DNA of 2,326 nt, from the NCBI RefSeq assembly GCF_003334355.1, contig NZ_QOWP01000076.1, one strand, 5' to 3'. This document shows positions 123-2,326 of this stretch, one piece after another. The notes under the pieces are model-generated. The model saw only the letters and a program-made list of their open reading frames with translations. It had not been told where the DNA came from and ran no database searches. Source of the stretch: Escherichia coli (lineage in GTDB: Bacteria > Pseudomonadota > Gammaproteobacteria > Enterobacterales > Enterobacteriaceae). Each line of letters opens with the position of its first letter. The stretch's first letter is position 1. Both the position numbers and the translations under genes were made by a program.

Positions 123-2326
123 GGTTAAGCGACTAAGCGTACACGGTGGATGCCCTGGCAGTCAGAGGCGATGAAGGACGTGCTAATCTGCGATAAGCGT
201 CGGTAAGGTGATATGAACCGTTATAACCGGCGATTTCCGAATGGGGAAACCCAGTGTGTTTCGACACACTATCATTAACTGAATCCATAGGTTAATGAGG
301 CGAACCGGGGGAACTGAAACATCTAAGTACCCCGAGGAAAAGAAATCAACCGAGATTCCCCCAGTAGCGGCGAGCGAACGGGGAGCAGCCCAGAGCCTGA
401 ATCAGTGTGTGTGTTAGTGGAAGCGTCTGGAAAGGCGCGCGATACAGGGTGACAGCCCCGTACACAAAAATGCACATGCTGTGAGCTCGATGAGTAGGGC
501 GGGACACGTGGTATCCTGTCTGAATATGGGGGGACCATCCTCCAAGGCTAAATACTCCTGACTGACCGATAGTGAACCAGTACCGTGAGGGAAAGGCGAA
601 AAGAACCCCGGCGAGGGGAGTGAAAAAGAACCTGAAACCGTGTACGTACAAGCAGTGGGAGCACGCTTAGGCGTGTGACTGCGTACCTTTTGTATAATGG
701 GTCAGCGACTTATATTCTGTAGCAAGGTTAACCGAATAGGGGAGCCGAAGGGAAACCGAGTCTTAACTGGGCGTTAAGTTGCAGGGTATAGACCCGAAAC
801 CCGGTGATCTAGCCATGGGCAGGTTGAAGGTTGGGTAACACTAACTGGAGGACCGAACCGACTAATGTTGAAAAATTAGCGGATGACTTGTGGCTGGGGG
901 TGAAAGGCCAATCAAACCGGGAGATAGCTGGTTCTCCCCGAAAGCTATTTAGGTAGCGCCTCGTGAATTCATCTCCGGGGGTAGAGCACTGTTTCGGCAA
1001 GGGGGTCATCCCGACTTACCAACCCGATGCAAACTGCGAATACCGGAGAATGTTATCACGGGAGACACACGGCGGGTGCTAACGTCCGTCGTGAAGAGGG
1101 AAACAACCCAGACCGCCAGCTAAGGTCCCAAAGTCATGGTTAAGTGGGAAACGATGTGGGAAGGCCCAGACAGCCAGGATGTTGGCTTAGAAGCAGCCAT
1201 CATTTAAAGAAAGCGTAATAGCTCACTGGTCGAGTCGGCCTGCGCGGAAGATGTAACGGGGCTAAACCATGCACCGAAGCTGCGGCAGCGACGCTTATGC
1301 GTTGTTGGGTAGGGGAGCGTTCTGTAAGCCTGTGAAGGTGTGCTGTGAGGCATGCTGGAGGTATCAGAAGTGCGAATGCTGACATAAGTAACGATAAAGC
1401 GGGTGAAAAGCCCGCTCGCCGGAAGACCAAGGGTTCCTGTCCAACGTTAATCGGGGCAGGGTGAGTCGACCCCTAAGGCGAGGCCGAAAGGCGTAGTCGA
1501 TGGGAAACAGGTTAATATTCCTGTACTTGGTGTTACTGCGAAGGGGGGACGGAGAAGGCTATGTTGGCCGGGCGACGGTTGTCCCGGTTTAAGCGTGTAG
1601 GCTGGTTTTCCAGGCAAATCCGGAAAATCAAGGCTGAGGCGTGATGACGAAGCACTACGGTGCTGAAGCAACAAATGCCCTGCTTCCAGGAAAAGCCTCT
1701 AAGCATCAGGTAACATCAAATCGTACCCCAAACCGACACAGGTGGTCAGGTAGAGAATACCAAGGCGCTTGAGAGAACTCGGGTGAAGGAACTAGGCAAA
1801 ATGGTGCCGTAACTTCGGGAGAAGGCACGCTGATATGTAGGTGAAGTCCCTCGCGGATGGAGCTGAAATCAGTCGAAGATACCAGCTGGCTGCAACTGTT
1901 TATTAAAAACACAGCACTGTGCAAACACGAAAGTGGACGTATACGGTGTGACGCCTGCCCGGTGCCGGAAGGTTAATTGATGGGGTTAGCGGTAACGCGA
2001 AGCTCTTGATCGAAGCCCCGGTAAACGGCGGCCGTAACTATAACGGTCCTAAGGTAGCGAAATTCCTTGTCGGGTAAGTTCCGACCTGCACGAATGGCGT
2101 AATGATGGCCAGGCTGTCTCCACCCGAGACTCAGTGAAATTGAACTCGCTGTGAAGATGCAGTGTACCCGCGGCAAGACGGAAAGACCCCGTGAACCTTT
2201 ACTATAGCTTGACACTGAACATTGAGCCTTGATGTGTAGGATAGGTGGGAGGCTTAGAAGTGTGGACGCCAGTCTGCATGGAGCCGACCTTGAAATACCA
2301 CCCTTTAATGTTTGATGTTCTAACGT
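123..2326 (+). rRNA. rrl: 23S ribosomal RNA (large-subunit rRNA), 5' ~2,200 nt covering domains I-IV and the start of domain V; 3'-truncated by the window edge
   Basis: Begins with the canonical enterobacterial 23S 5' end GGTTAAGCGACTAAGCGTACACGGTGGATGCCCTGGCAGTCAGAGGCGATGAAGGACG. Conserved landmarks fall at the expected E. coli positions with a constant offset of +122: G745/U746/U747/G748 at 867-870, the GTPase-associated centre 1051-1108 at 1173-1230 with A1067 at 1189 and A1095 at 1217, A1618 at 1740, G1835 at 1957. Downstream the offset is +124: helix 69 GGCCGTAACTATAACGGTC at 2030-2048, U1939 at 2063, C1962 at 2086, A2030 at 2154, G2057/A2058/A2059 at 2181-2183, G2069 at 2193. The window ends at about 23S position 2202, inside the L1-stalk region. 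Confidence 0.97.

What the first reader, a model, noticed from the sequence alone, without database searches (positions are those of the whole stretch)
1330..2260. Possible handful of point differences from the E. coli K-12 23S reference (recalled, unverified)
Four short stretches read differently from what I recall for E. coli rrlB: CTGTGAAGGTG near 1330-1340 (recalled CUGCGAAGGUG), GACGAAGCAC near 1645-1655 (recalled GACGAGGCAC), GGTGAAGTCCC near 1840-1850 (recalled GGUGAGGUCCC) and GGCTTAGAAG near 2250-2260 (recalled GGCUUUGAAG). If real, these are scattered substitutions typical of rrn operon or strain microheterogeneity. I cannot verify any of them without an alignment, and my recall at single-base resolution is unreliable.
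Basis: partly seen in the sequence, partly recalled or inferred. Interest (0 to 1): 0.2.

Follow-up and report, generated by a model that had tools for sequence, protein, structure and literature searches.

The report
Ordinary E. coli 23S rRNA variants
The four suspected base differences from the E. coli K-12 rrlB 23S rRNA gene are all real, but they are ordinary natural variants that leave the RNA fold intact; three are common in E. coli and one (G1529A) is rare.

Summary
The window holds 122 nt of 16S-23S spacer and the first 2204 nt of an E. coli 23S rRNA gene. All four recalled differences from K-12 rrlB are real: C1211U (window 1333), G1529A (1651), G1723A (1845) and U2132A (2256).

Three of the four already occur in other K-12 rrl copies. 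Across 5,426 complete E. coli genomes, U1211 is in about 69% of rrl copies, A1723 with this hairpin in about 52%, the helix-68 tip variant in about 34%, and A2132 in about 14%. Only G1529A is rare: 178 copies in 40 genomes. It is the single base separating the window from its nearest relative, strain PSS-12 rrnE.

All five changes preserve structure. Positions 1211 and 2132 are the third, solvent-facing bulge nucleotide of two kink-turn motifs. G1529A turns a G·U pair into A-U. Position 1723 lies in an internal loop of a variable hairpin. The helix-68 change adds one G-C pair under a GNRA loop. None falls at a modification or antibiotic-resistance site that I know of.

Verdict: this is known rrn microheterogeneity.

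The parts
123..2326 (+). 5' 2204 nt of a 23S rRNA gene (23S position = window position minus 122, up to the helix-68 indel)
   Evidence: Rfam RF02541 LSU_rRNA_bacteria, 2063.9 bits, model positions 1-2228, cut off at the 3' end. Annotated as 23S rRNA in every E. coli hit.
1..122 (+). 16S-23S spacer immediately upstream of the 23S gene. It differs from the rrlB operon at window 53 (A vs G) and window 100 (T vs A; T is shared with K-12 rrlE).
   Evidence: Alignment. Rfam StyR-44 hit at 7-115. In PSS-12 the matching copy lies downstream of a tRNA-Glu gene.
1333..1333 (+). C1211U: third bulge nucleotide of the motif GCC-UGY-GAA / GGA-GGU (kink-turn pattern, Kt-46)
   Evidence: also T in rrlH and rrlA. 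The Rfam structure line shows it unpaired, and U equals the bacterial consensus. Found in 26,290 rrl places in 4,701 of 5,426 genomes.
1651..1651 (+). G1529A: closing pair of the hairpin GA-RGCAC-UACG-GUGCU-GA. It pairs with U1542 (window 1664), changing G·U to A-U.
   Evidence: in no K-12 copy. Pairing from the Rfam structure line. RNAfold gives -7.0 to -7.6 kcal/mol. Found in 178 places in 40 of 5,426 genomes. It is the only difference from PSS-12 rrnE.
1845..1845 (+). G1723A: in the predicted internal loop GAR / GGA of the helix-63 hairpin, a region that is an insertion relative to the bacterial consensus model
   Evidence: A1723 with this hairpin type is found in 19,821 places in 3,335 genomes.
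1989..1998 (+). Helix-68 tip variant GCGGUAACGC (rrlB has GCGCAAGC): one extra G-C pair, and the GNRA tetraloop changes from GCAA to GUAA.
   Evidence: Rfam shows the two inserted bases flanking the loop. RNAfold gives -7.0 to -9.6 kcal/mol. Found in 12,767 places in 2,070 genomes.
2256..2256 (+). U2132A: third bulge nucleotide of the motif GGC-UUW-GAA / GGA-GCC (kink-turn pattern, Kt-78 in the L1-stalk region)
   Evidence: also A in rrlD. Unpaired in the Rfam structure line. Found in 5,405 places in 1,352 genomes.

Best explanation
The window is an rrnE-type copy of the E. coli 23S rRNA gene from a strain other than K-12. Its differences from K-12 rrlB are standing natural polymorphisms of E. 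coli rrl genes. These polymorphisms are shuffled among operons and strains by mutation and by gene conversion or recombination. They are tolerated because each leaves the 23S secondary structure intact. Two changes (C1211U, U2132A) fall on the third bulge nucleotide (L3) of kink-turn motifs, which points into solvent. One (G1529A) converts a G·U wobble into an A-U pair. One (G1723A) lies in an internal loop of a lineage-variable hairpin. The helix-68 tip change adds a base pair under a GNRA tetraloop. Shown: the differences exist, their population frequencies, and their positions relative to the consensus secondary structure. Inferred: neutrality, spread by gene conversion, and the three-dimensional kink-turn geometry.
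For: Identity: Rfam LSU hit. All 5,426 genomes in the collection match, and the best hit is PSS-12, between purH and yjaB/metA, which is the rrnE position. The window equals that copy except at position 1651. Differences. Sharing with other K-12 copies. Population counts out of about 38,041 rrl places: U1211 26,290, A1723 with this hairpin 19,821, helix-68 variant 12,767, A2132 5,405, A1529 178. Structure: Rfam structure lines and allele-by-allele RNAfold runs that give the same helices. [quoted passage not shown] A1529 is viable as the only 23S type: PK8277, PK8217, EC50, 19SZHZ869Rt, NGF1, 95-3322 and SCU-484 each show 7 places. General precedent: Pei et al. 2009 (PMC2672173) found that intragenomic 23S differences are mostly in loops, covariations or GU:GC conversions.
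Against: No genome in the collection holds the window exactly. The A1529 allele is rare (0.5% of copies). It is absent from all 98 occurrences of this hairpin found in genomes representing other species, all of which have G. So G·U at 1529·1542 is more conserved than a freely neutral site would be. Neutrality of any of these changes was not measured. Probe counts are lower bounds, because copies with a second nearby mismatch can be missed. Helix numbers rest on my recollection of the standard E. coli numbering.
Confidence: 0.9

Rival explanations
1. The one rare difference, A at window 1651 (G1529A), is a sequencing or assembly error in the source record rather than a real allele. The true sequence would then be identical to the PSS-12-type rrnE copy.
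For: The window differs from PSS-12 rrnE at this base only. No complete genome holds the exact window. rRNA repeats are prone to consensus errors in assemblies (established knowledge).
Against: The same 45-mer with A occurs in 9 independent genomes. A1529 occurs in 178 copies in 40 genomes, in several of them in all 7 copies. The change preserves the base pair.
Confidence: 0.08
2. The variants mark functionally specialised ribosomes. The operon-specific 23S alleles would be maintained by selection because they change ribosome behaviour, for example G1529A in the hairpin I take to be helix 59 at the tunnel exit, or U2132A in the L1 stalk region.
For: G is invariant at 1529 in 98 hairpin occurrences from other species, so the site is not unconstrained. 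Helix 59 contacts YidC and approaches the membrane (PMC4124156, PMC6776908). A2132 and A1529 are usually present in only some copies per genome (median 4 and 5 places).
Against: Every change is of the structure-preserving kind expected of neutral drift. The alleles occur in any number of copies from 1 to 7 per genome. No phenotype for these positions was found in the held literature.
Confidence: 0.03
3. The substitutions are antibiotic-resistance mutations selected in 23S rRNA.
For: None beyond their being in 23S rRNA.
Against: The window ends at 23S position 2204, before most of the peptidyl-transferase centre sites where such mutations lie (2447-2611). It does cover 2032 and 2057-2062, which are unchanged. 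None of 1211, 1529, 1723, 1869-1872 or 2132 is a resistance site I know of (own knowledge). Three of the alleles are in drug-sensitive K-12 itself.
Confidence: 0.01

Closest known systems
E. coli K-12 MG1655 rrlE / rrlB / rrlG (23S rRNA genes)
   Same: Same gene, with 2196 of 2204 aligned 23S columns identical. The spacer base at window 100 (T) is shared only with rrlE.
   Different: Four substitutions (C1211U, G1529A, G1723A, U2132A) and the helix-68 tip indel.
E. coli PSS-12 (NZ_AP027697.1) 23S rRNA gene in the rrnE position
   Same: 2325 of 2326 bases identical, including the spacer and all the common variants.
   Different: G rather than A at window 1651 (23S position 1529).
Intragenomic 23S rRNA diversity as surveyed by Pei et al. 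2009 (PMC2672173)
   Same: Differences concentrate in loops, covariations and G·U to Watson-Crick conversions, and preserve the secondary structure. The same classes are seen here.
   Different: That survey compares copies within a genome. Here the comparison is with a reference strain, and the other copies of the source genome are unknown.
Kink-turns Kt-46 and Kt-78 of the large-subunit rRNA (Klein et al. 2001; review PMC5061560)
   Same: Both sites have a Watson-Crick C helix, a 3-nt bulge, then G·A, A·G and a 3b·3n A·G. The variable base is L3.
   Different: The review describes these kink-turns in Haloarcula marismortui. Their equivalence to the E. coli nucleotides is inferred from the motif and the helix number, not from a structure.

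Membership tests
Bacterial large-subunit rRNA (Rfam RF02541) | Covariance-model score above the curated gathering score (50 bits) | tested here: met
   2063.9 bits, model positions 1-2228 of 2925, cut off at the 3' end of the window.
Escherichia coli rrl gene | Near-identity to annotated 23S rRNA genes of complete E. coli genomes | tested here: met
   All 5,426 genomes match. 4,291 records are at 99% or more, and the best is 2325/2326.
rrnE-type operon copy | Chromosomal position between purH and yjaB/metA, with a tRNA-Glu spacer | tested here: inconclusive
   True for the nearest relative, PSS-12, and the spacer base at window 100 is shared only with K-12 rrlE. The window itself holds no flanking genes and no tRNA, and gene conversion can move alleles between operons.
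Natural rrn microheterogeneity (standing polymorphism) | Each variant base is found in independent genomes or operons | tested here: met
   U1211 in 4,701 genomes, A1723 in 3,335, helix-68 tip in 2,070, A2132 in 1,352, A1529 in 40. Three of the four are in other K-12 copies.
Natural rrn microheterogeneity (standing polymorphism) | Variants preserve the consensus secondary structure | tested here: met
   Rfam structure lines and RNAfold of alternative alleles give the same helices.
Kink-turn (Kt-46 at 1206-1214/1235-1240; Kt-78 at 2127-2135 and its partner strand) | Three-nucleotide bulge followed 3' by G·A and A·G pairs, with a Watson-Crick helix on the 5' side | tested here: met
   The sequences are GCC-UGU-GAA / GGA-GGU and GGC-UUA-GAA / GGA-GCC. 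In the Rfam structure line the bulge and the GAA/GGA are unpaired and lie between helices. The definition is from PMC5061560.
Kink-turn (Kt-46, Kt-78) | Tightly kinked three-dimensional geometry with L3 extruded into solvent | not testable with these tools
   No RNA 3D structure tool is available here. The general statement about L3 is taken from PMC5061560.

The most novel reading that the evidence does not exclude
G1529A is a rare derived allele at a G·U pair that is otherwise invariant, in a hairpin shared across Enterobacterales and beyond. I take that hairpin to be helix 59 at the ribosomal tunnel exit, which touches YidC and approaches the membrane. In some E. coli lineages the allele has swept all seven operons. 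It might therefore be a selected change that tunes co-translational membrane-protein insertion rather than a neutral one.
Probability: 0.03. Interest if true: 0.35.

Novelty: already known. Interest (0 to 1): 0.06.

Why it matters
It matters little. The result confirms that the window is a normal E. coli 23S rRNA gene whose differences from the K-12 rrlB reference are ordinary, structure-preserving polymorphisms. Three points have some practical value. First, the rrlB reference carries the minority allele at 1211: U1211 is in about 69% of E. coli copies. It probably does at 1723 too. A1723 with this hairpin type alone is in about 52% of copies, and the four K-12 copies with the alternative hairpin also carry A. 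So a 'difference from reference' is not evidence of anything unusual. Second, two of the polymorphic sites fall exactly on the L3 bulge nucleotide of kink-turns, which illustrates where rRNA tolerates change. Third, G1529A is a rare marker allele (40 of 5,426 genomes) that could help with strain or operon typing.

Tried and rejected
(1) I looked for an exact source. Megablast of the whole window against 5,426 complete E. coli genomes gave no perfect copy, and the best hit (PSS-12) differs at one base.

(2) I looked for A1529 in other species. An A-specific 27-mer scan of the 100,044 GTDB species-representative genomes found nothing. The degenerate control found 98 occurrences, all with G. So A is not an ancestral or cross-species state.

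(3) I looked for a compensatory partner change for G1529A and found none needed, because the partner U1542 pairs with either base. A second A1529 haplotype, in 31 genomes, carries U1506C and A1548G. Both of those preserve their own pairs and are not in the window.

(4) I searched the literature for phenotypes at G1529, U1542, C1211 and U2132 and found nothing relevant.

(5) I tried to confirm the nucleotide range of helix 59 from two papers. They name H59 but give no nucleotide numbers, so the helix numbers remain my recollection.

(6) I considered an antibiotic-resistance reading and rejected it, because no known resistance site is affected. I considered a gene-conversion mosaic of K-12-like operons and judged it unnecessary, because the alleles are individually common in the population.

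Full report
**What the window is.** Rfam places a bacterial large-subunit rRNA at window 123-2326 on the + strand. The hit scores 2063.9 bits, covers model positions 1-2228 of 2925, and is cut off by the 3' end of the window. Rfam also places the family StyR-44 in the spacer at 7-115. Megablast against 5,426 complete E. coli genomes finds a match in every genome, with a median of 7 places per genome, always under an annotated 23S rRNA gene. The best hit is strain PSS-12 (NZ_AP027697.1). There the copy lies downstream of purD/purH, a 16S gene and a tRNA-Glu gene, and upstream of a 5S gene and yjaB/metA. That is the rrnE position.

**Checking the observation.** I fetched all seven MG1655 rrl genes with 122 nt of upstream spacer and aligned them with the window. 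The 23S position is the window position minus 122.

| Window position | Change vs rrlB | Other K-12 copies with the window's base |
|---|---|---|
| 1333 | C1211U | rrlH, rrlA |
| 1651 | G1529A | none |
| 1845 | G1723A | rrlH, rrlD, rrlC, rrlA (see below) |
| 2256 | U2132A | rrlD |

- In the four K-12 copies that have A1723, the hairpin at 1725-1735 is a fully compensated alternative version. The window combines A1723 with the rrlB/G/E-type hairpin.
- The quoted strings sit at 1330-1340, 1646-1655, 1840-1850 and 2251-2260. The recalled reference strings are present in rrlB and absent from the window.
At window 1991-1996 the helix-68 tip reads GCGGUAACGC where rrlB has GCGCAAGC. rrlA has a third version, GCCGCAAGGC.
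- There are also two spacer differences from the rrlB operon, at window 53 and window 100. The T at 100 is shared only with rrlE.
- Within the 23S part the window matches rrlB, rrlE and rrlG at 2196 of 2204 columns.

**How common the variants are.** Megablast needs a 28-nt exact word. A 45-nt probe centred on a variant base therefore only hits copies that carry that base. The denominator is about 38,041 rrl places in 5,426 genomes.

| Variant | rrl places | Genomes |
|---|---|---|
| U1211 | 26,290 | 4,701 |
| A1723 with this hairpin type | 19,821 | 3,335 |
| Helix-68 tip variant | 12,767 | 2,070 |
| A2132 | 5,405 | 1,352 |
| A1529 | 178 | 40 |

- K-12 rrlB carries the minority allele at 1211. 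It probably does at 1723 too, because in K-12 the alternative-hairpin copies, which this probe does not count, also carry A1723.
- The counts are lower bounds, because a second mismatch close to the centre can remove a hit.
- The bit scores and a direct comparison show that no genome holds the window exactly.
- PSS-12 rrnE differs only at window 1651. The next best copies differ at 1651 plus one of window 100 or 2256.
- PK8277, which does carry A1529, differs at window 669, 1845 and 2256.
- Of the 40 genomes with A1529, 9 share the window's exact 45-mer. The other 31 carry a haplotype with U1506C and A1548G in addition.
- Several strains show A1529 in all seven copies: PK8277, PK8217, EC50, 19SZHZ869Rt, NGF1, 95-3322 and SCU-484. 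Ribosomes with A1529 as the only 23S type therefore support life.
- Outside E. coli, an A-specific 27-mer found nothing in 100,044 species-representative genomes.
- A degenerate 21-mer found 98 occurrences of this hairpin in Enterobacterales, Pasteurellaceae, Rhodocyclaceae and others. All have G.
- A1529 is therefore a rare allele derived within E. coli.

**Structural mapping.** I used the consensus-structure line of the Rfam model on sub-regions, together with RNAfold of the alternative alleles.

- **Position 1211.** It is unpaired. The local motif is GCC-UGY-GAA on one strand and GGA-GGU on the other. U matches the bacterial consensus letter.
- **Position 2132.** It is unpaired in a motif of the same shape, GGC-UUW-GAA / GGA-GCC.
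- **Kink-turn reading of 1211 and 2132.** Both motifs fit the kink-turn definition: a Watson-Crick helix, a three-nucleotide bulge, then G·A and A·G pairs. Both also have the 3b·3n A·G pair that the Huang and Lilley review reports for Kt-46 and Kt-78. [quoted passage not shown] The three-dimensional geometry in E. coli is inferred, not tested.
- **Position 1529.** It pairs with U1542 in the hairpin GA-RGCAC-UACG-GUGCU-GA. Two non-canonical G/A pairs sit below it (marked 'v'). The change is G·U to A-U, and the predicted hairpin energy moves from -7.0 to -7.6 kcal/mol.
- **Position 1723.** It lies in a stretch that Infernal treats as an insertion relative to the bacterial consensus. RNAfold puts it in a 3×3 internal loop, GAR / GGA, with the same fold and the same energy for G and A.
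- **Helix-68 tip.** The two extra bases flank the tetraloop, one on each side. They add a G-C pair, and the GNRA loop changes from GCAA to GUAA. The predicted energy moves from -7.0 to -9.6 kcal/mol.
- **The linked changes in the other A1529 haplotype.** These preserve pairs too. U1506C turns G·U into G-C, and A1548G turns U-A into U·G.

**Basis of some labels.** The helix numbers H46, H59, H63, H68 and H78 come from my recollection of the standard E. coli scheme. The names Kt-46 and Kt-78 support two of them. The papers I read name H59 as a YidC contact that sits close to the membrane, but give no nucleotide numbers. From my own knowledge, none of the variant positions is a known 23S modification site or antibiotic-resistance site.

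**Interpretation.** The differences are standing polymorphisms of E. coli rrl genes. They are mixed among operons and strains, and all are of the structure-preserving classes that Pei et al. 2009 found to dominate intragenomic 23S variation: loops, covariation and GU:GC conversions (PMC2672173). The only uncommon feature is G1529A. It could in principle be a base-calling error in the source record, since it is the single base that separates the window from PSS-12. Its independent presence in 40 genomes makes a real allele far more likely. A functional role cannot be excluded: the hairpin I take to be helix 59 lies at the tunnel exit, and G is invariant at this position in other species. Nothing supports such a role, however, and the held literature has nothing on these positions.

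**Verdict.** The feature is already known in kind and is of low interest.

Noticed in passing
window 1989-1998: The helix-68 tip differs from rrlB by a 2-nt insertion and two substitutions (GCGGUAACGC vs GCGCAAGC). This adds a G-C pair under a GNRA loop. It is present in about a third of E. coli rrl copies.
   Followed up: yes
window 7-115: Rfam family StyR-44 ('Salmonella enterica Typhi npcRNA 44') matches the spacer just upstream of the 23S gene at 124.9 bits. The family therefore corresponds to the 23S leader of rrn operons rather than to a free-standing gene here.
   Followed up: no
window 53 and 100: Two spacer differences from the rrlB operon. A at 53 is shared with all six other K-12 operons, so rrlB is the odd one out. 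T at 100 is shared only with rrlE, which fits the rrnE position of the nearest relative.
   Followed up: partly
L013-L015 (NGF1, 95-3322, strain 1105), equivalent to window 1628 and 1670: A second A1529 haplotype, in 31 genomes, also carries U1506C and A1548G. Both preserve their own base pairs. In several strains it is fixed in all seven rrl copies, which points to homogenisation by gene conversion.
   Followed up: partly
window 669 (23S position 547): A here, but C in the otherwise closest copies of PK8277 and JNEC-KY203. This is another polymorphic site that is invisible in a comparison with K-12 alone.
   Followed up: no
window 1370-1387: GTGCGAATGCTGACATAA translates to (M)RMLT-stop. From memory, this matches the 23S-encoded 'E-peptide' mini-ORF reported to confer erythromycin resistance when expressed from rRNA fragments. 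It is unchanged from K-12.
   Followed up: no
window 1847-1857 (23S positions 1725-1735), K-12 copies: K-12 has two fully compensated versions of the helix-63 tip hairpin: UCC...GGA in rrlB/G/E and CGA...UCG in rrlH/D/C/A. The window has the first type but with A1723. Within K-12, A1723 is seen only with the second type.
   Followed up: partly
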